Under the pieces are notes generated by a model that saw only the letters and a list, made by a program, of their open reading frames with translations, had not been told where the DNA came from and made no database searches. DNA of 64,000 nt from Naegleria gruberi (lineage: Eukaryota): the NCBI GenBank assembly GCA_000004985.1, contig GG738865.1; one strand, written 5' to 3'. Both the position numbers and the translations under genes were made by a program. Every line of letters starts with the position of its first letter. Within the stretch, counting starts at the first letter, position 1. This document shows, piece by piece, positions 1 through 37,727 of the stretch.

Positions 1-417
1 ACCCAAACCCAAACCCAAACCCAAACCCAAACCCAAACCCAAACCCAAACCCAAACCCAACCCAAACCCAAACCCAAACCCAAACCCAAACCCAAACCCA
101 AACCCAAACCCAAACCCAAACCCAACCCAAACCCAAACCCAAACCCAAACCCAAACCCAAACCCAAACCCAAACCCAAACCCAAACCCAAACCCAAACCC
201 AAACCCAAACCCAAACCCAAACCCAAACCCAAACCCAAACCCAAACCCAAACCCAAACCCAAACCCAAACCCAAACCCAAACCCAAACCCAAACCCAAAC
301 CCAAACCCAAACCCAAACCCAAACCCAAACCCAAACCCAAACCCAAACCCAAACCCAAACCCAAACCCAAACCCAAACCCAAACCCAAACCCAAACCCAA
401 ACCCAAACCCAAACCCA
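1..417. repeat. terminal telomeric repeat array (CCCAAA)n, equivalent to (TTTGGG)n on the G-rich strand
   Basis: About 69 perfect tandem hexamers starting at base 1. The C-rich strand runs 5'->3' on the + strand, as expected at a left chromosome end. CCCAA 5-mer variants occur at about 57-62 and 121-126. Degenerate copies (aaccctag, cccaaaatt) follow to about 470. Confidence 0.9.
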
Positions 418-3757: not shown

Positions 3758-4072
3758 CCCAAACCCAAACCCAAACCCAAACCCAAACCCAAACCCAAAC
3801 CCAAACCCAAACCCAAACCCAAACCCAAACCCAAACCCAAACCCAAACCCAAACCCAAACCCAACCCCAACCCAAACCCAAACCCAAACCCAAACCCAAA
3901 CCCAAACCCAAACCCAAACCCAAACCCAAACCCAAACCCAAACCCAAACCCAAACCCAAACCCAAACCCAAACCCAAACCCAAACCCAAACCCAAACCCA
4001 AACCCAAACCCAAACCCAAACCCAAACCCAAACCCAAACCCAAACCCAAACCCAAACCCAAACCCAAACCCA
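3758..4072. repeat. interstitial (CCCAAA)n telomere-like array, about 52 units, same orientation as the terminal array
   Basis: Perfect hexamer tandem with one CCCCAACCCAA variant near 3862. It ends cccacgactaaggtcagacccaac. ORFs 3685..4119, 3693..4094 and 3697..4110 are translations of the repeat (QT/PK, GL, GF dipeptide runs). Confidence 0.9.
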
Positions 4073-4833: not shown

Positions 4834-5412
4834 NNNNNNNNNNNNNNNNNNNNNNNNNNNNNNNNNNNNNNNNNNNNNNNNNNNNNNNNNNNNNNNNNNN
4901 NNNNNNNNNNNNNNNNNNNNNNNNNNNNNNNNNNNNNNNNNNNNNNNNNNNNNNNNNNNNNNNNNNNNNNNNNNNNNNNNNNNNNNNNNNNNNNNNNNNN
5001 NNNNNNNNNNNNNNNNNNNNNNNNNNNNNNNNNNNNNNNNNNNNNNNNNNNNNNNNNNNNNNNNNNNNNNNNNNNNNNNNNNNNNNNNNNNNNNNNNNNN
5101 NNNNNNNNNNNNNNNNNNNNNNNNNNNNNNNNNNNNNNNNNNNNNNNNNNNNNNNNNNNNNNNNNNNNNNNNNNNNNNNNNNNNNNNNNNNNNNNNNNNN
5201 NNNNNNNNNNNNNNNNNNNNNNNNNNNNNNNNNNNNNNNNNNNNNNNNNNNNNNNNNNNNNNNNNNNNNNNNNNNNNNNNNNNNNNNNNNNNNNNNNNNN
5301 NNNNNNNNNNNNNNNNNNNNNNNNNNNNNNNNNNNNNNNNNNNNNNNNNNNNNNNNNNNNNNNNNNNNNNNNNNNNNNNNNNNNNNNNNNNNNNNNNNNN
5401 NNNNNNNNNNNN
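4834..5412. other. assembly gap (579 N)
   Basis: n run. ORFs 4768..5421, 4820..5425 and 4829..5593 are N translations. Confidence 0.99.
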
Positions 5413-7197: not shown

Positions 7198-8016
7198 TTA
7201 TGAATAAAATACAAAAATTGCAAAGAATACCAATGCAATACTAAGGACAATGCTCAAAATATCCATTCCATCGAGAGAATTGAAGAAATTCTTCTTTGGT
7301 GGTGAGGATTCAATTTCAATGTTTGCTTTTTCTGTTTCAATATTTTCTAGTTGACTATCAGTTTCAACATTTTCCAGTGAATTTGGTATGTCAAAACTAA
7401 ATGCAGCGGTTTGAGCTTGAGGAGATCGAGGAACTTGGTTAGTAGATCCAAAACTAAAAGGATCAGAATTTGATAAATTACATGAATTCCCCATCATTTC
7501 ATTAAACATGTTTGTCATGTATTCCCCTTGTTGCTGTCGTAGGAAAGTTTTCAACAGTTCTTCTTGTAATTTCTGTTGTTGCTCCAGCTCACTTGTAGAT
7601 CCAAAACTAAATCCACTTGTTGCCTTTGGTAGTTGAGAGAATTCAGAACCTAAACTAAATCCATTTTGTACTGATTGAGTTGGTGGAGGAGGTAGAAAAT
7701 TACATCCACCAATCTGATTCGATTGTTGTTGCACTAATCCACCACATGTTGGTGGTGAAAAAGCACCAAAAGTAAATCCACCAAAAGAAGGTTGAGGAAC
7801 TTGGTTTGTATTAAATTGACCAAAATTATTTGGGAAATTGTTTGTTGATGAATTAATTTCTGTTGGAAAGAAAGGATTGGCAGATTGAGTGGAGGCAGAT
7901 CCAACATTAAATGCAGAAAAACCTTGGTCAACTGGACCAAACGGACCTAATTGACCTAAATTATTTGCACCTAAATTGCCCAGAACCTTTTCACGTTCTC
8001 TTTTCAAATCAATCAT
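7198..8016 (-). CDS. FG/FxFG-repeat, Q/N-rich protein with a C-terminal transmembrane tail anchor
   Basis: 272-aa ORF. Motifs FGGFTFGAF, GFSFGST and FSFGST. The C terminus ILSIVLSIALVFFAIFVFYS is hydrophobic and sits at the very end of the protein. Confidence 0.5.
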   Translation of the reverse strand: MIDLKREREKVLGNLGANNLGQLGPFGPVDQGFSAFNVGSASTQSANPFFPTEINSSTNNFPNNFGQFNTNQVPQPSFGGFTFGAFSPPTCGGLVQQQSNQIGGCNFLPPPPTQSVQNGFSLGSEFSQLPKATSGFSFGSTSELEQQQKLQEELLKTFLRQQQGEYMTNMFNEMMGNSCNLSNSDPFSFGSTNQVPRSPQAQTAAFSFDIPNSLENVETDSQLENIETEKANIEIESSPPKKNFFNSLDGMDILSIVLSIALVFFAIFVFYS

Positions 8017-8257
8017 TTTTTTTTAATTGTAAAAAAATAAACCACTTCAACAATCAAATGTTTAATTTACAAGGTTCACCTTAAAACTAAAAATAGAATA
8101 AAGAATCTATTATTCTATTACTTTCAAGAGAATTCATTACCTACCTATTGATGATAGAAATGAACATTATCATGATTTAATGATGTTCTTCATTATCAAA
8201 AATAGTAGGATTTAAACGTGGCAAATATCAAATATTAGAAATCCACAATATTCACAT

Positions 8258-11200
8258 TTAAAATAATTTTGCCAATACTGATAGCTCATTAATAATATCA
8301 TTAAACGAAGGTCTTTCCAGTGGTGCCTGATTCCAACATTTCACCATTAAATTTTGATATCTTTCCACTAGTGAAATAATCCCACTTCCATCCAATTGAT
8401 TACTATCCTTTCTGATATTGAAAATTTGTGAATCCTGATTGATAATCCATTCATTAATTTCCTCTCTGGACTTTAATATTATTGGACGATTTCCCAGGGA
8501 GACAAGATAAGGAATTCGATAAGGTGAAGCATCTTTTTGAACTTCCTTAGTAAGAGGATTTTCAATGAACGGAACAATACAGTATAGTAATTCATACATA
8601 ATGATTGAAAAACTGTAAACATCTAATTTTGTAGCAATTTTGAGTGATTTCTTTTCGTCTTTTGGAACAATTGAATCGTCAACTGATTCTGGAGCTAGAT
8701 ACATCAAAGTACCCACGTTCATTGTCATGGTTGACTGAACAGAATTTCTTACCAATCTCACCAATCCAAAATCACATACTTTTCCTTGAAAATGATCATT
8801 CAAAAGAATATTTCCAGGTTTCTATAAAAGGATTAATATTAATCCAATTATGTTAAAATAAAAAAAACGTACCAAATCTCTGTGAATAATTCCAGGTTTC
8901 ATATTATGCAAATAATCCATTCCATTTGCAACATCCAACAGAATGGAAATTCTCATAGAAAATTGTAATCTGAGAGTTCCATTCTTACATTGATAAATTA
9001 CTTGATCCAAACTTCCTTTTGTTAAATATTCAGTGACCATGTACTTGTTTTGTCTAGTAATGGCCACACCATAGAATTGGACAATGTTTAAATGGTGGAG
9101 TCTACTTAAAATAGCTGCTTCCTTGTCGAATTCATCAACTTCATTGGTCATTTCTAATGATTTTATGGATTTGATAGCAACTTTGATATTTCTCCATTTA
9201 CCCAAATAGACAACTAAAATGTTTGAAAACTAAAAATCAACAAGTGACTTACCTCCATTTCCTCCTTCTCCAATCTTTTTCTCTATATGTAAATCCTCAA
9301 TTGGAATGATAAAGCTTTGATCCTCATTATCCAATAATGGAATAAATAAATCCCCATTACCTGCACTAGCAGATGTCGATGCGCTCTTCTTAGAAGCTTT
9401 TGAATGTTGTTTTGTTTCCTCTTCATCATCACTCATATCAAAGATAACCTTCTTATCATTTAGTTTTCTTTCCAATTCCGCTTCTGCTCTATCCTTTTCC
9501 TTCAATCTTCTTAAACTATTGACAACTTTCCTCAAGATGAAATAGATCAGTAATGAAATTAGTAAGCCCATGACAAAAGCCAATATTGTAACTGGCACCA
9601 CAATTGATACGATAAGCCATGTATAATCCTCAGGGTTTTTCACACAAGCGTACAAATAATTCACATCTTTAAATTCAATAATGGTTCCTGGAACTTTTTC
9701 AATGTGATATCCTTTATCACAATTTGCCATGTAAGCTGTGTAATAGAACTTCTGGACGAGTATATCGGCCTTGAAATACATGGATACTTCCACTAGAGAA
9801 GAATTTTCACCATTTGAATTAGTAATAATACTCTGTGGAATATTGACAGCAGAAAATACGTCATTTGCAATTAGATATGGAATTACCTTAATGGTAAAGT
9901 TTCCAATCTCTGTAATGTTGAATACAACCTTTGAGTGCATAGACCCGACACGTATTCTCTCATAATAGAGTGGAATTAGATTTCCAATATTGTCTGTACC
10001 TTTCACATTAAAGGTAAATTCTGATCCAGGTTTAAGAATGTTAGCTGACTTGTTGGTGTCTGATATAATTTCCAATTCACTCAATGCATATGAAAAATTA
10101 TTTGGTATATTGGTTCCAATTATTTCATTTCCAATAATTAGATTTCCAATAAATTCATTACTTGGATCTACACTTTCTGGACCTAAAATATATACAGCAG
10201 CACCCATAAACAATGCTTGATTGTTAATAAACTTGGTATTGATAAAACGTCCATAGCCAACCAAGTACCGTGGAATGTAAGCTATTGCTCCACCTTTTTT
10301 GGCATAATTATTAATAAATGTTGCTGATTTCCATATATAATCATCTACTCTGTTAACTGAGGCATCAGTACATAGGAAAATAGCACCACCCATATTGGAA
10401 TAGTTATCCCGACCTATTACTCTATTGCTATCGAATAGAGATCCAGAATATTGGAATTGAATTACTAATGAACCAATATAGAGTGCACCACCTGAAATCA
10501 GTGCAATATTATTTCTAAAAGTACATGAAATAATATTAAGAGAGTAGGCTAAATCTATAAATATGGCACCTCCTGCACCACCCACTGAGGTATTATTTTC
10601 GAATTGACAATTAGATATTATTCCAATAGCATTAAGGTAACTTCTAGAAAATATTGGAACGAAAATGGCTCCTCCACTTTCCCTTGCCTCGTTACCAAAG
10701 AATGAAGACTTGTCAATTACCAACTTGAATATTCTACTAATGTAAAGACAAGATCCATTGATCCCTCTGTTGTTTAGAAATTGAGAATTTGTAATTGTGA
10801 CTTCATAGCTTTGTTCAATGATTACAAGATTTTTCAGATCTGGATAATAAGAGTTGCTATTGTTTGTCAACGTAATTTGATCAAGTTTCACTGAAGAAAA
10901 TCCTTGAATTGAAGCAAATGACTCTCCGTCATAGCCATGTGTATTTAAAATCTCAATACTGGTACCAAAATCAGCCATAATTGCAGAATCTCCACTATAT
11001 TGTGTAAATTCATTAGTATTGAATGTAATTTTAACAATATTTGTAATTCCAATCTTTGAATTGATTAATAAACATCCATAAACTTGCAACTCTTTAGATG
11101 AAGCAAGAAATAGTTGTGTTTCTTCAAATTTGGTTTGAAAAATTGTAATCTTGTCCATTTCAGAAAATAACATTCCACTTCCCACACCATTTACAATACT

Positions 11201-12220
11201 TTTAAGCAAAAGTAGTGAAGTATATCGATAGACCAGAAATCCTGAATTGGTATTGACAGCTTTCTCATATGCAGCATTTTCAATTAACATGTAATCTCCC
11301 TTGACTTGAGTTCCCAAACAATTTTGTTGGATATTGACAGCCATTAGAATACTAAAGAATGAAACATCAAAAAAGATGTAATTGTAAGCTCTACATCCTC
11401 TAATATTCATATAAAGTGAAAGTCCATTGAACACAACAAGTTGTAGATCAGCTCTCTGTGTTTCTCCTATAATTGGAAATCCACCCTTTTCTTCACAAAA
11501 TAATGCTGAAAGCACATTAACATTATCCATAGATTGAAACGTTACAATGTACACTAGATTCTGTTTAGTTGGTGTAACAATTGATGAATAGCATTCAAAC
11601 ACATCATTCAGTAAAACAAATTTAACAGAAACAGCTCTACTCAATCCAGTATTTTCCAAAAAAGAAGAATAGTTCTGATGAAGAATGTAATCCAAAGAAT
11701 CGAGAGCATGTTGAATAGTTGCACATGGAGTATCCACTGAACGACCACAAACCTCCTCTTTGGCACTTTTTTCAAGTTTTGAATCGACATAGAATGTAAT
11801 CAATAAATTAGAATTTTGATAGACGGCTAATTGTTGTGTAAAAACCTTGTAGGCCTGTGAATTGATCCAGCGCTGATTGTTGGATTTGACACCCCGATGG
11901 TGGTGAGGTTTCGAATTGCCACCATTTGTTTTATAAAATTCTACATTTTCCATAGATAGTGATGGTATTGTAAATTGAGCCTCTCGATTATTGATGAGTT
12001 TGTAGTTGGTATTATTGTTAAAAGTGTAAGGAGTTCTTTGATTTGGACTTGTGCTCCATTCCGAAACCAATCTTGTTGATGAATATTCGTGATGAAAAGT
12101 TGTTGTTGTTGTTCCTGTTGGTGCTACTACTGTCAGTGTTGATGCTGTTGTAGTTTCAATTTGACACACAACCCACAAGACAATCAACAACAGTAACAAA
12201 ACTGTAAACGACAACTTCAT
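8258..12220 (-). CDS. receptor-type TKL serine/threonine kinase: signal peptide, PMP-like parallel beta-helix repeat ectodomain, one TM, cytoplasmic kinase. Three exons, approximately 12220..9253, 9213..8873 and 8821..8258.
   Basis: ATG at ~12220 gives MKLSFTVLLLLLIVLWVVCQ (signal peptide). The ectodomain has GGAI/GGAL-type repeats (GGAGGAIFIDLAYS, SGGALYIGSL, MGGAIFLC, KKGGAIAYI) like polymorphic-membrane-protein beta-helices. The TM segment is WLIVSIVVPVTILAFVMGLLISLLIYFIL. Intron 1 is ~9214-9252, GTAAGT...TTTTAG; splicing it gives IGEGGNGVVYLGKWRNIKVAIK (Gly loop plus VAIK). Intron 2 is ~8822-8872, GTACGT...TATAG; splicing it gives HRDLKPGNILLNDH. DFG and APE motifs follow (CDFGLVRL, LMYLAPE). 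Confidence 0.8.
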
Positions 12221-12324
12221 TATGTTGTGTGAAATTTTTTTGAATACTAATGAAATGTCTGTGCGACATGCAACAGTTGATGAAAAGATTCTCAAATTAA
12301 GAAAGTATTTAATACAGTTAAGAT

Positions 12325-13769
12325 TCAGTCAAAAATGATTGTAATATCAGATAATTTTCCAATTTGGGTGGCTTCTTTGAGCTTGGTGAAAAAGTGAATT
12401 AGACTTGACTTTGGTTTCACAATAATATAAATTGCTGTATATCCTGCTGATACGTGGTCCAGTTTAAATCCACTTGGAATGTCCAATTCAAATAATGTGT
12501 CTCCTGTATTACCTCTAGATTCAATATATTGTCTATTTGGGGAAACAATCATGAGTGATAAATTGGAGGTGCAAAGAGATGATCCTGCATACTTCTTATC
12601 TTGCTTTATAAGTTCTGGCTCGCCCTTTGAGAGCTGATAGAGACTATCATTTTCTATTATAAATTGTCATTGTAAATAGTGAAATATTTTGCATACATAC
12701 TCAACACATATGATCGGTAATTGAATTTACAAACTCCAACATCAATCCAATCATGAATACTAGCATTTAGTTCGACTTGTTGGAAACTACTGATTGTAGC
12801 ACTATCTCCAGAACCACCTTCCATCTTTCCAGACATGAAAATTCTATTATCTTTTAATAATATCAACGTATGATCATATCCTGTTTGTATTTTAGAAATG
12901 TCACAATCAAACTCATAAGAAAATGTATACTTGTTGACATTATCATTTTGTTTGATTCCGAAATTACATAATGAAGCTGATCCAGCTCCATAAATTTTCC
13001 TATTATTCACAGCAAAAACAGTAAAGAAAGTTCCTCCATCAATGTGAGTGATTTTGTAATTGGAAGGTAAATCTAGATGATCCAACGGAATATGTGTAAA
13101 ATCTCCAAATGTTCCAGACTGTGTAATCCCAGTTTGATAGAAATAATTGTGACCAGCTCCAAACAAGTACTTGTCATTAATTACTAACACCGAATGAACC
13201 CATCCTATTAAAGATTTCAATCAAACAACGATCCTTGTCAACATTTAATTCACTTGAAAACATACCACAAGCGATTTTAGTAACTCTGAAATCATGATCA
13301 ATTTTTCCCATTAGTATTAAAGGTTCCATCATTCTTAGAACATCAATCCTTTTGAAATACGGAATTGCTGAAGTATCCTCACCACATCCACACTATTATT
13401 TAAATTAAAATCGTGATGAAGATCAAAACCTACCTGAAGATAAGCATTGTATCCACAAACATATAATTCATCTTCCGTAGTAACCAAGAATACATGCGAT
13501 CTTCCACTAACCATATATTTAATTCTATTAATTATTTCCTCATATTCAACCTTTCCCAAAGTAACCGAACCATGATAAAGTCCTCTCGGTTTATCCACAC
13601 CAGTAACATCACTCCTAGCCCAACTTTCATCAAAAGCCTCCAATTTTACCAACTCTGAGATTTCATTCGCTTTGCATTCAAAGCCTAAATTTTCTCCCTC
13701 TTCTATTAAATATTTGATCATCAAAATATTAAATATTATTTGTATCATCATCATGTGATTGATCATCAA
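12325..13769 (-). CDS. RCC1-like beta-propeller repeat protein, 4 exons (introns ~13394-13434, ~13206-13266, ~12654-12700)
   Basis: Three track ORFs (13335..13769, 12657..13220, 12325..12552) join in frame when GTAGGT...AATAG, GTATGT...TTAATAG and GTATGT...TTATAATAG introns are removed. Repeats are of RCC1 type: VCGYNAYLQCGCGEDTSAIP, KIACGWVHSVLVINDKYLFGAGHNYFYQTGI, IYGAGSASLCNFGI, HTLILLKDNRIFMSG, VSAGYTAIYII. The track start at 13769 is TTG, so the true initiator is uncertain. Confidence 0.6.
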
Positions 13770-13911
13770 ACAAACCTACTCTTCTCTCCATAGAAAAACA
13801 CACGGGAACCTTTCTGTTGCGTCATCACACACAAATTTTTTTTAATAATTTTTCAAATTGAAAATTGCAATTTTTAAAATAGATTTACACACACAGAGAT
13901 GGAAATTTGTT

Positions 13912-14847
13912 TTATTCTTGCTTGGTTGCCAATTTCTTCTTTTCAATTTCAGCATTTTCCAAGGCATGCTCAGGATCTTTCAAGCCCAAAATTCCTCTCC
14001 ATATAATTCTATATAAATAAGGCAGTGTTAAATAAGGCACTGATTCCAAACACCAATACGACCAAATCTCATGAAAAACGCCAAAATTCACAGAAATTGC
14101 AACACTCAAAAGCCAGCCAGAGAAAAGTCCAACGCCAAGAATTTTACCAGACATGAACCAATCGTCACTTCCTTGATATCTGAAAAAGTGTGGCAAGACA
14201 GTGAGTAATAACCAAGTGAACCAATGAGGTGCATATCCATATAAACTATGATAAGGGAACATCCAGTAGAGATGGTTTGGTCCTTGATAGGAACACATGG
14301 AGGTGCCAATGTTTTGTAATGGAACACCAAAGAGTTTGGCCTCAGTTCCATAAGCATTTGGAGTGATTTCCAAATTTGAAGTGTCTTGTCCAGTGGATTG
14401 CAATAGAGAATGAGCTGATTGATTGTTTGTGGCCATGGTGTGTCCTCCCAATCCATAATATCCCATGAATAATGAAATAGAAGAAACTATTAAACAAATG
14501 TAACAAGCTACGAGTGTGAATCGATAGAGTGTCTTTCCTTTTAAAGTATTTCTCAAGCAATAGTAATTGTGTGAAATTGGTTGTCCCCAAATTAGCAAAT
14601 GGGCAACAATTGTCAAATATTTGTTACTATCTGTATTACAAGAATCGGTTAATCCAAAGTAATATTGTAAGAATTGCAAACTTTCCATTAGAAAGTATGT
14701 CAAATAGAGGAAAATGAGTGAAAATAGAGAACCTTTTTGTGCAAAAGTGGCATTCTTTGGAAGAGAAAGGTATCGTCTAGTTTGATCCAAAGTCATCACC
14801 AAGCCAAGGCACGAAAATACGAAAGAACTTGTCATTGACCAACACAT
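13912..14847 (-). CDS. multi-pass integral membrane protein, family not recognised
   Basis: 311-aa ORF with at least 6 hydrophobic segments and a K/E-rich C-terminal tail. Confidence 0.5.
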   Translation of the reverse strand: MCWSMTSSFVFSCLGLVMTLDQTRRYLSLPKNATFAQKGSLFSLIFLYLTYFLMESLQFLQYYFGLTDSCNTDSNKYLTIVAHLLIWGQPISHNYYCLRNTLKGKTLYRFTLVACYICLIVSSISLFMGYYGLGGHTMATNNQSAHSLLQSTGQDTSNLEITPNAYGTEAKLFGVPLQNIGTSMCSYQGPNHLYWMFPYHSLYGYAPHWFTWLLLTVLPHFFRYQGSDDWFMSGKILGVGLFSGWLLSVAISVNFGVFHEIWSYWCLESVPYLTLPYLYRIIWRGILGLKDPEHALENAEIEKKKLATKQE

Positions 14848-14999
14848 CTTTAATTGTACGACTAGTTAAGCGCGTTCAGCGAAATCAAAAACAAGTTTGT
14901 GTGTTGAGTTGTTTTTTTGATGTATTTTTAAAATGGAAAAATACAATAGCAGCAGAGCAAGCAAAAGGGAAGAATCTTTTTGTTTGAATATTCGAGTGT

Positions 15000-16706
15000 T
15001 TAATATTTTCCATACACCGCGCCAAGTGAGGAGGCATACATTGGACGCACAAAAAGTTTATTGTAAAGCTTAAGTGAATAGGAGCAAGATTTGGTCTTTA
15101 ATTGGAACCAGTGCCTTTTCATAATATTAAAAAATTCAGTAAACTCAATTTTTAATTTTTTCCATCGTGATTCCAGATCAATATTACAATACTTTTTACA
15201 ATATTCAGCCAAGTTTTTTGCCAAGGTATTCTCGGATGGTTTAGGTGCTTGGAAATTAGTCTTTTCACATCTCTTGATACAATTCAGCAGTCCATTGTAA
15301 TTTTCCGAAGTTAATTTCTTGGCCATGAGTGAACTGAATGTAATTTTCTTGGCACTGGCAAATCCTCCTGCATTTCCCATTCTCAATTCCACATATCTTG
15401 TTCTGTGATTGTCAATTTTAGTCAGGACTCTAAGGCCAACGTATGGAAATTTAACTTTTTCAGAGTTATTGGAAGAATTCATATCACATGATTTGAATAG
15501 AATGTAAGTTTCAGTCAATTCATCACCAACAAATTTTGCCTGAGTGGAACAGATAACATTGAAACTACGAGTCGAAAAGAGAGGACCCAGCAATAAATCA
15601 GCATTCAACAAGACACTTGGATACTTTTTCATTGAATTACTTGCATCTATGGACGAATAGGTGTGATATCTGAGGTTGGAAAAAGTGTAATCCAAGTGGT
15701 TGTCATAATGGAGAGCTTTGACAATATTCTCAATTGGATATTCAAAAACTCCAACATTCTTTGTTAATCTTAATTGCAACCCATCAGAATAGTCCTTATC
15801 AGATGCCCATTGTACAACTCTTCCTTTATCAAAATAGGTCATGAACCAATCAGATGAATATTCCTTTGCTAAATATTTGGATAATTTCCAATCTCTGTCA
15901 ATGACATATTTCATTGACAAGTCATCAACGGTGAGCTTGTTTGCTGAAGATTGCATTTCTTGATTATATTCATTCTTCTTCTTGTAGCACTCAATTAGGA
16001 ATCTTGGAAGAGTATTCTGCTTAATTCCCTTTTCAGTCCACTTTTTCACAAATTTATAATGTTTGTGTTGGAAGGCAACAAATGTATCCTCCAATATAGT
16101 GTGTAACATGTCACATATTAATTGTACTTCATCCATGAGTGAAGCTTGACTTGTTTCATTCGATTGGTTATTGATTGAGCTTGTTTCATCACATGATTCA
16201 GTTTTGAAAATGAATGATTGGCCAGTTTTGTGAATTTTGTAAATCTTTTCCAAGAATTGACCCAATCTTACATGATGAAACCATCTATAAGCTCTACCTT
16301 GATTTCTCATTGGTATAATCAATAAGATAATGTCAAGCACCAAGTCATTGTCAATAGATACTGATTTACCATTTCTTGAATATTTTGTAACTAAGAGATT
16401 GGACATTATCAAGGAATATTCCTTCAGAAGCAGCATCAATATCATCTTCAAGGATATTACTCGTATTGTCATCATTGTCCTCAGTAGTGGTATGTGTTGT
16501 TTGGTTTTCCTCATGTATAAATGATAACGTATCGTTGGTACTATTGACTTCGAGAGCTTCATTGTACGAAACATCAACAGGTGGCTCTGAGAGATACTTC
16601 TTTTCGAACAGTTTTCTGTGGTTTTGGACTGATTGGAAAGAGAGGTCTCTGTTTGGCAGGAGAATGGCACATAGTGGGAGTCTAATGATTGAGCTTGAAG
16701 ACATTT
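15000..16706 (-). CDS. hypothetical protein locus with a frame discontinuity: an acidic N-terminal ORF (to 16366) followed by a 556-aa ORF. Either two genes or one gene with a 1-nt frameshift.
   Basis: ORF A (MSSSSIIRLPLCAILL...EDNDDNTSNILEDDIDAASEGIF...YKIFKKW*) stops at ~16366 inside ORF B, which is in the -1 frame (..KYSRNGKSVSIDNDLVLDI..). Removing one A from the run AAGAAATGG would fuse them. No GT..AG intron that restores the frame was found. Confidence 0.4.
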   Translation of the reverse strand, partial: KCLQAQSLDSHYVPFSCQTETSLSNQSKTTENCSKRSISQSHLLMFRTMKLSKSIVPTIRYHLYMRKTKQHIPLLRTMMTIRVISLKMILMLLLKEYSLIMSNLLVTKYSRNGKSVSIDNDLVLDIILLIIPMRNQGRAYRWFHHVRLGQFLEKIYKIHKTGQSFIFKTESCDETSSINNQSNETSQASLMDEVQLICDMLHTILEDTFVAFQHKHYKFVKKWTEKGIKQNTLPRFLIECYKKKNEYNQEMQSSANKLTVDDLSMKYVIDRDWKLSKYLAKEYSSDWFMTYFDKGRVVQWASDKDYSDGLQLRLTKNVGVFEYPIENIVKALHYDNHLDYTFSNLRYHTYSSIDASNSMKKYPSVLLNADLLLGPLFSTRSFNVICSTQAKFVGDELTETYILFKSCDMNSSNNSEKVKFPYVGLRVLTKIDNHRTRYVELRMGNAGGFASAKKITFSSLMAKKLTSENYNGLLNCIKRCEKTNFQAPKPSENTLAKNLAEYCKKYCNIDLESRWKKLKIEFTEFFNIMKRHWFQLKTKSCSYSLKLYNKLFVRPMYASSLGAVYGKY

Positions 16707-17188
16707 TTTTTAATTGTGTTGATTGTTTCGGCAGGTGATTCAATTTAAAGAAACTGGTGTCTAAATGGGTTATGAAAAGATTCCTGCCACAAGCTCTTTG
16801 TTTGCATTTAAACAACAAGAGATAAGACTACAGAATGAAACAATAAGATTAGGTAAATTGGCAAAATGGATTCCTCAATCATTTTTTCGCTAAGACCTCC
16901 TATCTTCATGGTTTCGTTGCATTTTCGCTTCGTTCTTATCAGACATTCCAATAAGTGCAAGTTTACCCAAACAAAAGAAAATCTTTACAGTGACAGAGAC
17001 GAAATTGGACGAATTTGGTGCTTGATCGTAAAAGGGAAAAAAGGACGTTGAATAATTTGTAATCCATTTCCTGTAGTTGATGTTATTGTTGTAATAAAGG
17101 ACATTTGATGGTCTCTTGGTTTTGGTTGTGCTTTCCATACGTCGTATCGAATACTAATCCGAACAGTTGTTTGAATCCACAACAAGAA

Positions 17189-18901
17189 TCAAACAACATT
17201 AGATGCATTTCCAACAGTTGGCAAGTTAGTTGGTTTGTGAATTTGTCGTTGCCATTCAATTGCCAATTCACAAATTCGAGGATTAGTTCTCTTCAATCTA
17301 TCATAAACATCCAATAGAGTATGCATGGAAAGAAATTCGAGTTGAGAAAATAAATTCTGTGGCAGATTATCAGTGTGAGAGGTGTTAATTTTGTAAAGTA
17401 TTTCCTCTCTGTGAGTTGCAATATTGGGAATATTCAATTCATAGGTACTTCCTTCATTCAAATAGCTCTGAACAATGTGGAGAGCCATCTCTCTATTTCG
17501 GTTGACTTTAAAAGTTTCCACATCCTTGAAAAATAAAACACCCTCAATACAATAACTTTTTCGACTGAAATCTGTGAGAATTTCAAAAGCTTCCTTATTG
17601 TGTAAACAAAACTCAACTTCTGAATTGTACAATTCCAAATGTCCTCTATAATCTTTTGCAATTGAGTAGCAAATTGGCAAGAGAATGGTAATGAAAACTT
17701 CTAGAGTAGAGAAGGTCATCATGATTAATCCTTGAGGCACAACATGATCTAGAAAGAGTGACATGTAATTGTTTGTAGAAATGACAATATGTGTAATGAC
17801 AAATAGTACTTGTAAAATGACAAGAATAATTGCTTCCTTCTTAATGAACCATGTATCTTCGGTTTTGAAGCAAAGCATTACACAAATAAATTCCATTCCC
17901 AAATAGAAAATGTACAGCATAACTGAAATGATGGAGGGTGTCATGTTGGCATAACATCCTTTCAGACTAATCATGGATGTTTCTTTCATTAGGAATCTAC
18001 TATTTACAAAGAATGTATCCTCAATGGAAGCCAAAACAATCCAAATTATCAAATGTATCAATAAGAATCCAATAAAAACATCCACGGAAAATCTATTACT
18101 CGAAATGAGTGAATTCATTTTGAAAAGGAATTGTTCTCTCCTTCCCAATTTGTGAACACTAAGAAATTCTTGAACATTGTCGAGTCCTGTTGTTTCAATC
18201 ACTGAAATTCTCCTAGTAATGGTGTTGCCATCATCTGTGGCCACAGAGTTTTGAAATAGCGCGACTGACTTGGTCTGTTGTGGTTGTTTCTGTGTTGATG
18301 AATCTTTGAATAGTGATGAAATATTGTCAATCCCTCCAACTACTACTGGTGTCAAACCTCTCCTCTCCAATAAGGTTTGATTCTGTTCGAAATGTTGCTT
18401 TTTATACATATTGACCTTATACTTGATGAACAATCTCAATGTTCTTAAAGTTGAAGGCAATGTCAAACAGGGAGGTAACACAATAAATACCATACTAAAG
18501 AAGAAGCACGGATAGTATTCCCTCCCGACCACATATCTCAATCCAAATCCAAAAACAAATAGAAAACTACTCGACATGGTAAAGAGCATTCCAGTGAGTG
18601 TTCTAGCCTTGATGTGTCCATTATTTCGTTTCCAACACAACCCGAGAGAGCAGAGAAGAATTAGCAAGCTGTAAAACATGAGAAATAATCCAGAAGTGAT
18701 TGGTACAGAAATAATATCTGGACACTCCTCAGTGAAGGACCACTGGTCGGCATTGGAGAGAGGAACCTGTGGCATTTGGAGAATCCAATCAGGACATGAT
18801 GTATTTGTTGTTGATGAATTAGAATTATAATAACGGAATGATGAGGAAGTGCTTGTTGGGAACAGCCAATGTTCATGATTAATGGGATGAGAAAGGTCCA
18901 T
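17189..18901 (-). CDS. seven-transmembrane receptor fused to a C-terminal RGS domain (7TM-RGS)
   Basis: Seven hydrophobic helices lie between residues ~70 and 400. The C terminus has RGS-box motifs: EFCLHNKEAFEILTDFSRKSYCIEGVLFFKDVETFK...ALHIVQSYLNEGSTYELNIP...LFSQLEFLSMHTLLDVYDRLKRTNP. Confidence 0.65.
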   Translation of the reverse strand: MDLSHPINHEHWLFPTSTSSSFRYYNSNSSTTNTSCPDWILQMPQVPLSNADQWSFTEECPDIISVPITSGLFLMFYSLLILLCSLGLCWKRNNGHIKARTLTGMLFTMSSSFLFVFGFGLRYVVGREYYPCFFFSMVFIVLPPCLTLPSTLRTLRLFIKYKVNMYKKQHFEQNQTLLERRGLTPVVVGGIDNISSLFKDSSTQKQPQQTKSVALFQNSVATDDGNTITRRISVIETTGLDNVQEFLSVHKLGRREQFLFKMNSLISSNRFSVDVFIGFLLIHLIIWIVLASIEDTFFVNSRFLMKETSMISLKGCYANMTPSIISVMLYIFYLGMEFICVMLCFKTEDTWFIKKEAIILVILQVLFVITHIVISTNNYMSLFLDHVVPQGLIMMTFSTLEVFITILLPICYSIAKDYRGHLELYNSEVEFCLHNKEAFEILTDFSRKSYCIEGVLFFKDVETFKVNRNREMALHIVQSYLNEGSTYELNIPNIATHREEILYKINTSHTDNLPQNLFSQLEFLSMHTLLDVYDRLKRTNPRICELAIEWQRQIHKPTNLPTVGNASNVV

Positions 18902-36932: not shown

Positions 36933-37727
36933 ATGTACAACCAAAGTGAAACGGCAATCTTTAACAACGAAGAGCAGCCACCTCAAGTAGAAGATGCCTA
37001 TGCCGGATATGATGATGTTGCCACAGGAACAACAGAAGCACCTGGATTGTCTGCCGAAATTGTCTATCATCCTTACTTTCAATTGGCAACATTTTGCTTA
37101 ATAATGGGAGTTATTGGTGTTGTTGCTGTTCCAATCTCTGGTTGGTTTATTGGTGATGGATTATATCGTTCCTATAGCGGACCATCACATTTATTAGATG
37201 TTGTTGTTTGCTTATTGGTTGGATTATTCTTAATGGCCCTTACTTTGATGATTGTTGGATTTATTTTGGCTGTTTTGGCTACCCAATGGAATTACATTCA
37301 TGAAGGTACATCAAAGGAACAGTATGGAGCAGGTGAAGGAATGACATCAACCCCAGTATACGATCAAAAGACTATTGTTCAAAAGAGGAGAACATTTATC
37401 ATTTCAGTAATCTTTACCGTTCCATACTCTATTATTGGTTTTTATTATTGTATTGCTGGATTAGTTGCTGTTATTTCCACAGCCTCATCAAATTTCCCAA
37501 CATTTACTAACTTTGTCGATTACACTGGATTTGGTTTGGGATTTTTAATGCTCTATTTTGGTTGTGCTTTGATTTCGCTTACAGTCATGATCTCAGTAGG
37601 TCTTTTCAGAAGTTGGAAACAAGCTGAAACCTCTGATCCAGGTTGTTCACATCCTATTCTTCAAAAGATTGGAGACTTTTTGAAGAGATATGTTTGCTGT
37701 GTTAATGGTCAAGTTGCCGAAGCTTAA
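36933..37727 (+). CDS. four-TM membrane protein, family unknown
   Basis: 264 aa with four long hydrophobic helices (e.g. FQLATFCLIMGVIGVVAVPISGWFIG, VVVCLLVGLFLMALTLMIVGFILAVLA). Confidence 0.5.
   Translation: MYNQSETAIFNNEEQPPQVEDAYAGYDDVATGTTEAPGLSAEIVYHPYFQLATFCLIMGVIGVVAVPISGWFIGDGLYRSYSGPSHLLDVVVCLLVGLFLMALTLMIVGFILAVLATQWNYIHEGTSKEQYGAGEGMTSTPVYDQKTIVQKRRTFIISVIFTVPYSIIGFYYCIAGLVAVISTASSNFPTFTNFVDYTGFGLGFLMLYFGCALISLTVMISVGLFRSWKQAETSDPGCSHPILQKIGDFLKRYVCCVNGQVAEA

What the first reader, a model, noticed from the sequence alone, without database searches (positions are those of the whole stretch)
8258..12220. Receptor kinase with a PMP-like beta-helix ectodomain
The signal peptide, roughly 850-aa ectodomain of GGA[IL]-type parallel beta-helix repeats, single TM and TKL-type kinase are all supported by two cleanly spliced short introns. 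The splices reconstruct the Gly loop plus VAIK and the HRDLKPGN motif. PMP-like repeats are best known from Chlamydia adhesins and from surface proteins of some protists; fused to an active kinase they form an unusual sensor architecture.
Basis: partly seen in the sequence, partly recalled or inferred. Interest (0 to 1): 0.55.

Follow-up and report, generated by a model that had tools for sequence, protein, structure and literature searches.

The report
Naegleria receptor kinase with beta-helix ectodomain
This is a real, intact three-exon gene of the amoeba Naegleria gruberi encoding a membrane receptor with an adhesin-like beta-helix outside the cell and an apparently active protein kinase inside; relatives exist in other Naegleria-group amoebae, but none has been studied.

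Summary

The window is Naegleria gruberi NEG-M, and the gene lies ~8 kb from a TTTGGG telomere array. Full-length collinear homologues are already public as "hypothetical" proteins: N. fowleri FDP41_004237, N. gruberi NAEGRDRAFT_74710 and Willaertia magna ABK040_005398. The architecture is therefore a conserved, uncharacterised heterolobosean receptor-kinase family, not a one-off.

The most likely mechanism is inferred, not shown: the beta-helix binds an extracellular, probably glycan or surface, ligand, which clusters the receptor and activates the kinase. Interest is modest. The finding is correct and the family is unstudied, but it is a lineage-specific variant of a familiar theme.

The parts
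8258..12220 (-). Whole gene (ATG to TAA): 3 exons, 1290-aa receptor kinase
   Evidence: Collinear with N. fowleri FDP41_004237.
9253..12220 (-). Exon 1: signal peptide, ectodomain, TM, juxtamembrane segment and first half of the Gly loop (aa 1-989 plus 1 nt)
   Evidence: A single ORF. Splice donor is GGAG|GTAAGT.
9214..9252 (-). Intron 1, 39 nt, GTAAGT...TTTTAG, phase 1
   Evidence: L001 (>=90% identical to N. fowleri) has a 128-nt intron at the same position. The intron is absent in L002 and P0076, whose sequences run straight through the junction.
8873..9213 (-). Exon 2: kinase N-lobe to HRDL (VAIK K1004, alphaC E1021, HRD D1102)
8822..8872 (-). Intron 2, 51 nt, GTACGT...TATAG, phase 0, between HRDL and KPGN
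   Evidence: Introns sit at the same position in L001 (69 nt) and L002 (36 nt). Absent in N. gruberi paralogue P0076.
8258..8821 (-). Exon 3: KPGN, DFG (D1120), APE, C-lobe, TAA stop at 8258-8260
12140..12220 (-). Signal peptide (aa 1-27, MKLSFTVLLLLLIVLWVVCQIETTTAS)
   Evidence: Hydrophobicity scan. Inferred, since no dedicated predictor was available.
11804..12139 (-). Thr/Asn-rich, poorly conserved N-terminal stretch (aa 28-139), probably disordered or glycosylated
   Evidence: Not alignable among homologues. Excluded from the confident model.
10121..11803 (-). Predicted right-handed parallel beta-helix (aa ~140-700), starting with a conserved YVD...CG.S.D.PC cap motif
10121..10780 (-). Canonical PMP-type repeats (aa ~481-700): six paired FxxN...GGA[ILV] coils
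9623..10120 (-). Membrane-proximal ectodomain region (aa 701-866), fold unresolved; conserved Cys pair (C834, C859) just before the TM
   Evidence: pLDDT below 50 for aa ~700-830 and ~70-77 for aa 831-866. The conserved C...Y.C pattern appears in the family alignment.
9545..9619 (-). Single transmembrane helix (aa ~868-892)
9296..9544 (-). Juxtamembrane segment (aa 893-975): conserved K(E/D)RAE..(L/I).DK..IF, an acidic/Ser-rich linker of variable length, then PLL and FIIPIED(I/L).IEKK
   Evidence: Invariant columns in alignment A1. Also.
8261..9295 (-). Protein kinase domain (aa 976-1290; interrupted by both introns)
   Evidence: Pfam. PDB relatives CTR1, TNNI3K, IRAK4, LysM-RLK, TAK1.

Best explanation
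The locus is an intact Naegleria gruberi gene for a type-I single-pass receptor protein kinase.

Outside the cell it carries a long right-handed parallel beta-helix. The C-terminal ~220 aa of that helix are PMP-type FxxN/GGA[ILV] coils. A membrane-proximal domain of unknown fold follows.

Inside the cell, a conserved juxtamembrane segment leads into a catalytically complete TKL-like kinase with Ser/Thr-type signatures (HRDLKPGN, GTLMYLAPE).

Shown here: the gene structure, the domain order, intact catalytic motifs, the beta-helix fold prediction, and conservation of the whole architecture in N. fowleri, N. gruberi (a paralogue) and Willaertia magna.

Inferred: the beta-helix acts as the ligand-binding or adhesive sensor, most plausibly for a polymeric glycan or a cell/prey surface. 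This is what most solved beta-helices of this shape bind. Ligand-induced clustering would then activate the kinase by trans-autophosphorylation of its Ser/Thr-rich activation segment, feeding into motility, phagocytosis or differentiation signalling.
For: Gene model and motifs.

Pfam kinase hits at 2e-49 and 2e-48, and Chlam_PMP at the cut-off.

TKL-type best solved relatives.

Signal peptide, single TM and positive-inside residues.

Whole-ectodomain homologues: P0002 (E=8.8e-70, query aa 109-765), P0004 and P0076.

Intron positions shared with L001 and L002, and the intronless paralogue P0076.

End-to-end collinearity with N. fowleri FDP41_004237, 35% identity over 1257 columns.

The same Pfam architecture in N. 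fowleri, W. magna and the N. gruberi paralogue. Their names.

AF2 pLDDT 71.9, with 256 residues at >=90.

The ectodomain diverges faster than the kinase (27-39% against 58% identity to the N. fowleri homologue), as expected for a ligand-facing domain.
Against: There is no transcript or protein evidence for this locus; splicing is supported only by homology and motif reconstruction.

The Chlam_PMP score in this protein is exactly at the threshold.

Aa ~320-370 and ~700-830 are modelled with low confidence, so part of the ectodomain fold is unknown.

AF2 is reported to over-predict beta-solenoids for repeat sequences (title and abstract of bioRxiv 10.1101/2024.10.30.621056, listed). The independent PMP profile matches mitigate this concern.

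Ligand, oligomeric state, substrate and kinase activity are all untested.

TKL membership rests on best-hit similarity, not on a phylogeny.
Confidence: 0.85

Rival explanations
1. Two separate genes: a secreted or anchored PMP-like surface protein, and an independent cytoplasmic kinase encoded by the downstream exons.
For: In the public annotations of N. lovaniensis (L003) and N. fowleri (L004), paralogous loci are split into a Chlam_PMP gene followed 45-92 nt later by a kinase gene on the same strand.
Against: In the window, one uninterrupted ORF runs from the signal peptide through the TM and juxtamembrane segment into the Gly loop. Exons 2-3 lack a Gly loop and an initiator context of their own. 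The L003 and L004 splits are caused by apparent 1-nt frameshifts inside conserved family sequence. Full-length single models exist for N. fowleri FDP41_004237, N. gruberi NAEGRDRAFT_74710 and W. magna.
Confidence: 0.03
2. A decaying subtelomeric pseudogene, or a pseudokinase that only scaffolds and has no catalytic signalling.
For: The gene lies ~8 kb from a telomere array, a typical location for fast-evolving and often degenerating surface-protein genes. The exact protein was not found in the public protein collection.
Against: The 3873-nt CDS has no stop or frameshift. All catalytic residues are intact: GxGxxG, K1004, E1021, D1102, N1107, D1120 and APE. The kinase is 58% identical to the N. 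fowleri homologue.
Confidence: 0.07
3. The beta-helix is an enzyme (a glycoside hydrolase, polysaccharide lyase or epimerase) tethered to the membrane, and the kinase reports or regulates that activity rather than simple ligand binding.
Against: Sequence identity to these is 7-16% and no Pfam enzyme family was hit. The sequence signature is the PMP adhesin-type repeat, for which no catalytic activity is known (established knowledge of chlamydial Pmps; PMC10715098). No catalytic residues were identified.
Confidence: 0.08
4. The ectodomain was recently acquired by horizontal transfer from Chlamydia-like endosymbionts of amoebae.
For: The repeat type is named after Chlamydia, and amoebae host chlamydiae (general knowledge).
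Against: There is no autotransporter barrel or Pmp middle domain. The two best PMP-only matches that were examined lie on large eukaryote-like contigs, next to reverse-transcriptase, ZBED5-like and ephrin-domain genes. Identity to any PMP-only protein is only ~30-36% over ~200 aa. The N-terminal half of the helix has homologues only in the family itself.
Confidence: 0.03

Closest known systems
Naegleria fowleri FDP41_004237 (XP_044561655.1, A0A6A5BQ57; 1259 aa, 'hypothetical protein / protein kinase domain-containing protein')
   Same: The two proteins are collinear from the YVD...CG.S.DTPC cap through the beta-helix, PMP coils, membrane-proximal domain, TM, juxtamembrane motifs and kinase to the last residue. 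A contig >=90% identical to it has introns at the same two positions. Pfam finds Chlam_PMP plus kinase.
   Different: Overall identity is only 35%: 27-39% in the ectodomain and 58% in the kinase. The N. fowleri protein has longer juxtamembrane and activation-segment inserts. Whether it is the orthologue or a paralogue was not established.
Naegleria gruberi NAEGRDRAFT_74710 (XP_002670288.1, D2W030) and Willaertia magna ABK040_005398 (KAL9644919.1)
   Same: Both have the same PMP beta-helix, TM, KERAE juxtamembrane segment and TKL kinase architecture.
   Different: These are paralogues or more distant members, with 45% kinase identity. The N. gruberi paralogue is intronless, and its model starts inside the helix.
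Chlamydial polymorphic membrane proteins (Pmp autotransporters; Pfam PF02415 repeat)
   Same: They share paired FxxN and GGA[ILV] tetrapeptides that form coils of a parallel beta-helix exposed on the cell surface (PMC10715098, PMC11166332).
   Different: The window protein has no Pmp middle domain or autotransporter beta-barrel. It is anchored by an alpha-helical TM and fused to a kinase. It is eukaryotic and spliced. It shares the repeat type, not family membership.
Entamoeba histolytica transmembrane kinases (TMKs) and other protist single-pass TM kinases surveyed by Yin et al. 2023 (PMC10463195)
   Same: These are type-I single-pass receptors with a lineage-specific ectodomain and a Ser/Thr/Tyr-superfamily kinase in amoeboid protists. 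That survey reports that ~40% of protist TMK non-kinase domains have no Pfam annotation.
   Different: The Entamoeba ectodomains are Cys-rich CXXC-type repeats (my own knowledge), not a beta-helix. PMP, beta-helix and Naegleria are not mentioned in that paper's text.
Plant RLK/Pelle receptor kinases and Raf-like CTR1 (TKL group)
   Same: These are the closest solved kinase domains: CTR1 at 9e-41 and LysM-RLK/CERK1 at ~1e-30. The receptor logic is the same: an extracellular glycan- or peptide-binding domain, a single TM, and a TKL kinase.
   Different: The ectodomain fold differs (LRR, LysM, malectin or WAK in plants). The fusion is probably independent. No phylogeny was done.
Trichomonas vaginalis Pmp-like surface proteins
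   Same: These are eukaryotic surface proteins with FxxN/GGA repeats and a C-terminal TM (cited in PMC10715098).
   Different: To my knowledge they carry only short cytoplasmic tails and no kinase domain.

Membership tests
Eukaryotic protein kinase superfamily (Pfam PF00069 / PF07714) | Profile score above the curated cut-off | tested here: met
   PK_Tyr_Ser-Thr scored 168.7 bits (cut-off 23.1). Pkinase scored 165.5 bits (cut-off 31.7).
Eukaryotic protein kinase superfamily (Pfam PF00069 / PF07714) | Catalytic residues: GxGxxG, VAIK Lys, alphaC Glu, HRD Asp with catalytic-loop Asn, DFG Asp, APE | tested here: met
   GEGGNG 984-989, K1004, E1021, D1102, N1107, D1120, APE 1146-1148. All are invariant in family alignment A1.
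Eukaryotic protein kinase superfamily (Pfam PF00069 / PF07714) | Phosphotransferase activity | not testable with these tools
   Requires a biochemical assay.
TKL (tyrosine-kinase-like) group | Closest affinity to TKL families (Raf/MLK/IRAK/RLK-Pelle) rather than to other groups | tested here: inconclusive
   The best solved relatives are all TKL: CTR1, TNNI3K, IRAK4, LysM-RLK and TAK1. Src and Abl come next. No group-level phylogeny was made.
Chlam_PMP repeat proteins (PF02415) | Profile score at or above the gathering threshold | tested here: met
   20.6 bits against a cut-off of 20.6, which is borderline; 4 stretches. Homologues score 23-48 bits.
Chlam_PMP repeat proteins (PF02415) | Repeated paired FxxN and GGA[ILV] tetrapeptides | tested here: met
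   Six pairs at aa 507-676, against 0.007 expected by shuffling.
Chlam_PMP repeat proteins (PF02415) | Repeats form coils of a parallel beta-helix | tested here: met
Chlamydial Pmp autotransporters (type V secretion) | C-terminal autotransporter beta-barrel (PF03797) and Pmp middle domain | tested here: not met
   No such Pfam hit down to E=1. The C-terminus is a TM helix plus a kinase.
Type-I single-pass receptor kinases | N-terminal signal peptide, exactly one TM helix, kinase on the cytoplasmic side | tested here: met
   Hydrophobic segments occur only at aa 1-27 and 868-892, and a basic cluster follows the TM. The prediction is from sequence only; localisation was not tested.
Heterolobosean PMP-beta-helix/TKL receptor kinase family (uncharacterised; N. 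fowleri FDP41_004237, N. gruberi NAEGRDRAFT_74710, W. magna ABK040_005398) | Collinear homology across ectodomain, TM, KERAE / FIIPIED juxtamembrane motifs and kinase | tested here: met
Heterolobosean PMP-beta-helix/TKL receptor kinase family (uncharacterised; N. fowleri FDP41_004237, N. gruberi NAEGRDRAFT_74710, W. magna ABK040_005398) | Shared intron positions (Gly loop, phase 1; HRDL|KPGN, phase 0) | tested here: met
   L001 has both introns, L002 has the second, and P0076 has neither.
Entamoeba-type TMKs | Cys-rich CXXC repeat ectodomain | tested here: not met
   There are only 13 Cys residues in the mature 840-aa ectodomain and no CXXC repeats.

The most novel reading that the evidence does not exclude
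The family may be a heterolobosean class of pattern-recognition receptor kinases. In this reading the beta-helix reads, or even cleaves, bacterial, prey or host surface glycans and directly triggers phagocytic or adhesive signalling, a convergent counterpart of plant glycan-sensing RLKs. The N. fowleri member would then be relevant to host-cell recognition. The subtelomeric position and the fast-evolving ectodomain would reflect diversifying selection on ligand specificity.
Probability: 0.15. Interest if true: 0.65.

Novelty: new variant of a known kind. Interest (0 to 1): 0.35.

Why it matters
How free-living and pathogenic Naegleria sense surfaces, prey and hosts is poorly understood. A conserved receptor kinase with an adhesin or glycan-binding type ectodomain is a concrete, testable candidate sensor, and it has a full-length counterpart in the brain-eating amoeba N. 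fowleri.

It also illustrates that protist receptor kinases recombine one kinase module with very different ectodomains. A sister protein in a metagenome carries EGF repeats on the same juxtamembrane-kinase module.

Finally, current Naegleria annotations split some paralogues into two genes at apparent frameshifts, so the size of this family is probably underestimated.

The sequences themselves have been public since the 2010 N. gruberi genome. What is new is the recognition and description of the architecture, not the existence of the gene.

Tried and rejected
1. AF2 on the ectodomain without an alignment gave pLDDT 33.7 and was unusable.

2. Word-indexed homology searches with the ectodomain or the full protein returned only one hit each. 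They were probably swamped by repeat and kinase words. Only the profile of the juxtamembrane-plus-kinase region worked.

3. The metagenome DNA scan with A1 used the generic pattern HRDLKPGN and returned 80 unrelated kinases of ~30% identity, none from the family.

4. Fold search against afdb50 was unavailable.

5. hhalign of the N-terminal ectodomain half against the PMP part found no significant similarity. I therefore do not call the whole ectodomain 'PMP repeats'.

7. Exact look-up of the 1290-aa protein and of the exon-1 ORF found no record, and neighbour-based locus look-ups failed. I could not determine whether GenBank has a model for this locus.

8. The chlamydial-HGT idea was rejected: the nearest PMP-only proteins examined lie on eukaryote-like contigs.

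9. Literature searches for the architecture or the accession numbers found nothing.

10. There are no paralogues of this gene elsewhere in the window.
Full report
OBSERVATION. The region lies on the minus strand of an AT-rich (33% GC), gene-dense eukaryotic window. A 1021-codon ORF at 9230-12295 contains the first ATG at 12220. It runs through a hydrophobic N-terminus, a long ectodomain, one hydrophobic helix and an acidic linker, and ends 8 codons after ...KKIGEGGNGG. Two further ORFs downstream carry the rest of a kinase domain.

Joining them at GT-AG sites gives the following model. Exon 1 is 9253-12220. Intron 1 is 9214-9252 (39 nt, GTAAGT..TAG, phase 1). Exon 2 is 8873-9213. Intron 2 is 8822-8872 (51 nt, GTACGT..TAG, phase 0). 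Exon 3 is 8258-8821 and ends in TAA. The CDS is 3873 nt and encodes 1290 aa.

Catalytic residues are all present: K1004, E1021, D1102, N1107, D1120 and APE 1146-1148. A Kyte-Doolittle scan finds only two hydrophobic segments, aa 1-27 and aa ~868-892. The second is followed by RKVVNSLRRLKEK, giving type-I topology.

SUPPORT FOR THE SPLICING WITHOUT RNA DATA. A full HMMER scan of 1.84 billion representatives with the ectodomain found three proteins homologous over the whole ectodomain; the other 147 of the 150 listed hits match only the PMP-repeat part.

- P0002 stops at ...GEGGNGG, the same place as our exon 1. Its contig (L001) has a 128-nt GTAAGT...AG intron at that position and a 69-nt intron at HRDL|KPGN.
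- P0004 (L002) reads straight through the first junction (GEGGSGCVYLARW...VAIK). It has only the second intron, 36 nt, at the identical position.
- P0076 has neither intron and encodes ectodomain, TM and a complete kinase in one ORF.

Cluster look-up shows that P0002 is >=90% identical to N. fowleri FDP41_004237 (1259 aa) and that P0076 is N. gruberi NAEGRDRAFT_74710. The N. fowleri protein aligns with ours from aa 142 to the C-terminal residue, at 35% identity over 1257 columns, with no gap at either junction. The kinase exons therefore belong to the same gene as the ectodomain.

THE ECTODOMAIN. Pfam gives Chlam_PMP at 20.6 bits, exactly the gathering cut-off. The homologues score 23-48 bits, and W. 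magna also hits Beta_helix PF13229.

Canonical paired FxxN...GGA[ILV] motifs occur six times, all between aa 507 and 676. Shuffling gives 0.007 on average. This same stretch is what matches the PMP-repeat proteins that make up most of the 2108 hits at E<=0.001. The N-terminal part (aa 125-470) has no significant profile similarity to the PMP part. Its only detected homologues are family members: P0002 and P0004 among the HMMER hits and the N. lovaniensis upstream ORF.

Single-sequence AF2 failed. With a 34-row alignment the model reached mean pLDDT 71.9 and pTM 0.62. By region, aa ~140-290 scored 70-94, aa ~320-370 was low, aa ~420-700 was mostly above 90, aa ~700-830 was below 50, and aa 831-866 was ~70-77.

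The ectodomain is therefore a beta-helix of roughly 400-560 residues whose last ~220 residues are PMP-type coils. A low-complexity Thr/Asn-rich leader precedes it. An unresolved ~165-aa membrane-proximal region with a conserved Cys pair follows it.

THE KINASE. Pfam hits are 2e-49 and 2e-48. The best solved relatives are CTR1 (9e-41), TNNI3K, IRAK4, LysM-type RLKs/CERK1 and TAK1, all TKL, followed by Src and Abl. HRDLKPGN and GTLMYLAPE are Ser/Thr-type signatures (established kinase knowledge).

The juxtamembrane segment is conserved across the family: K(E/D)RAE..(L/I).DK..IF, then PLL, then (F/I)II(P/N)IED..I. The same juxtamembrane-kinase module occurs with a different, EGF-repeat ectodomain in a metagenomic relative (P0159). 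This indicates ectodomain shuffling on a common signalling module.

WHOSE GENOME. Six ORFs of the window are exact matches to Naegleria gruberi NEG-M proteins on an 820-kb scaffold: XP_002677663, XP_002677665, XP_002677760, XP_002677761, XP_002677757 and XP_002677759.

The window begins with (CCCAAA)n arrays at 1-417 and 3758-4072. The complement, TTTGGG, is the candidate N. gruberi telomere repeat reported by Fulneckova et al. 2013 (PMC3622300). The gene is thus about 8 kb from a probable chromosome end.

The exact 1290-aa protein is not in the protein collection.

The closest named kinases are from N. lovaniensis, N. fowleri, Acrasis kona and W. magna. At two paralogous loci, in N. lovaniensis and N. 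fowleri, the public annotation has a Chlam_PMP gene immediately followed by a kinase gene. The break is an apparent 1-nt frameshift inside conserved sequence. That points to assembly error or pseudogenisation rather than true separate genes.

MECHANISM. Shown: architecture, intact motifs, predicted fold and conservation. Inferred: the beta-helix is the sensor or adhesive module and the kinase is activated by ligand-driven clustering.

Three points favour binding to a polymeric glycan or a surface. The structural neighbours are nearly all carbohydrate-active or adhesive beta-helices. The ectodomain evolves faster than the kinase, at 27-39% against 58% identity. The ectodomain carries 11 N-glycosylation sequons.

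An enzymatic role is possible but unsupported. A chlamydial origin is not supported: there are no autotransporter parts, and the nearest PMP-only relatives examined lie on eukaryote-like contigs.

NOVELTY AND VERDICT. I found no paper describing a PMP or beta-helix ectodomain on a protein kinase, in Naegleria or elsewhere. A 2023 survey notes that ~40% of protist TM-kinase ectodomains lack any annotation. The sequences, however, are public and automatically annotated as hypothetical proteins or kinases.

The finding is correct. It is a lineage-specific variant of the receptor-kinase theme and a member of a small conserved heterolobosean family. It is worth noting and easy to test, but not a surprise to a specialist. 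Interest 0.35.

Noticed in passing
window 1-417 and 3758-4072: There are two arrays of the hexamer CCCAAA (complement TTTGGG), with ~70 and ~53 copies at 99% match. The first sits at the very start of the window. TTTGGG is the candidate N. gruberi telomere repeat (PMC3622300), so the window starts at a probable chromosome end, with an interstitial telomere array 3.3 kb further in. The first 6 kb is GC 21-28% with strong GC skew.
   Followed up: partly
window, whole: The source is identified as Naegleria gruberi strain NEG-M. Six ORFs are exact matches to XP_002677663, XP_002677665, XP_002677757, XP_002677759, XP_002677760 and XP_002677761, on an 820,293-bp scaffold.
   Followed up: yes
window 8016-17189, minus strand: GenBank protein ids of the flanking minus-strand genes are EFC45013 (7198-8016) and EFC45015 (17189-18901). 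That numbering leaves room for only one model (EFC45014) between them. The interval nevertheless holds four ORF-supported genes: the receptor kinase, an RCC1-like gene at 12325-13769, a DUF5765 gene at 13912-14847 and an ORF at 15000-16670. Some may be unannotated. This is inferred from the numbering only.
   Followed up: partly
L003 ~4880-4910 (N. lovaniensis PYSW02000006.1) and L004 ~4940-4960 (N. fowleri VFQX01000067.1): Paralogous PMP-ectodomain/kinase receptors are annotated as two adjacent genes each. The split coincides with an apparent 1-nt frameshift inside conserved family sequence, which suggests an assembly indel or a pseudogene.
   Followed up: partly
P0159 (JGI metagenome protein, 501 aa): The same juxtamembrane and kinase module (YIIPIEDI...GAGG) is fused to an EGF-repeat ectodomain instead of a beta-helix. 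This points to ectodomain shuffling within this kinase family.
   Followed up: partly
L001 (ENA ERZ2098899 NODE_921, 9433 bp): This metagenome-assembly contig encodes a protein that falls in the 90%-identity cluster of N. fowleri FDP41_004237. Naegleria fowleri-like DNA is therefore present in that public sample.
   Followed up: no
window 12325-13769, minus strand: The gene directly upstream, only ~104 nt from the receptor's ATG, is an RCC1-repeat protein split over at least three ORFs by short introns (e.g. GTATGT...ATAG at ~12553-12656).
   Followed up: no
window 7198-8016, minus strand: The downstream neighbour NAEGRDRAFT_66949 (D2VDK3) is a 272-aa low-complexity protein rich in FG/FSFG-like motifs, with a C-terminal hydrophobic tail and no Pfam hit.
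   Followed up: no
window 36933-37727, plus strand: This 264-aa ORF has an exact match only in Logan/ENA assemblies and not among the named N. gruberi NCBI proteins. It may be an unannotated gene.
   Followed up: no
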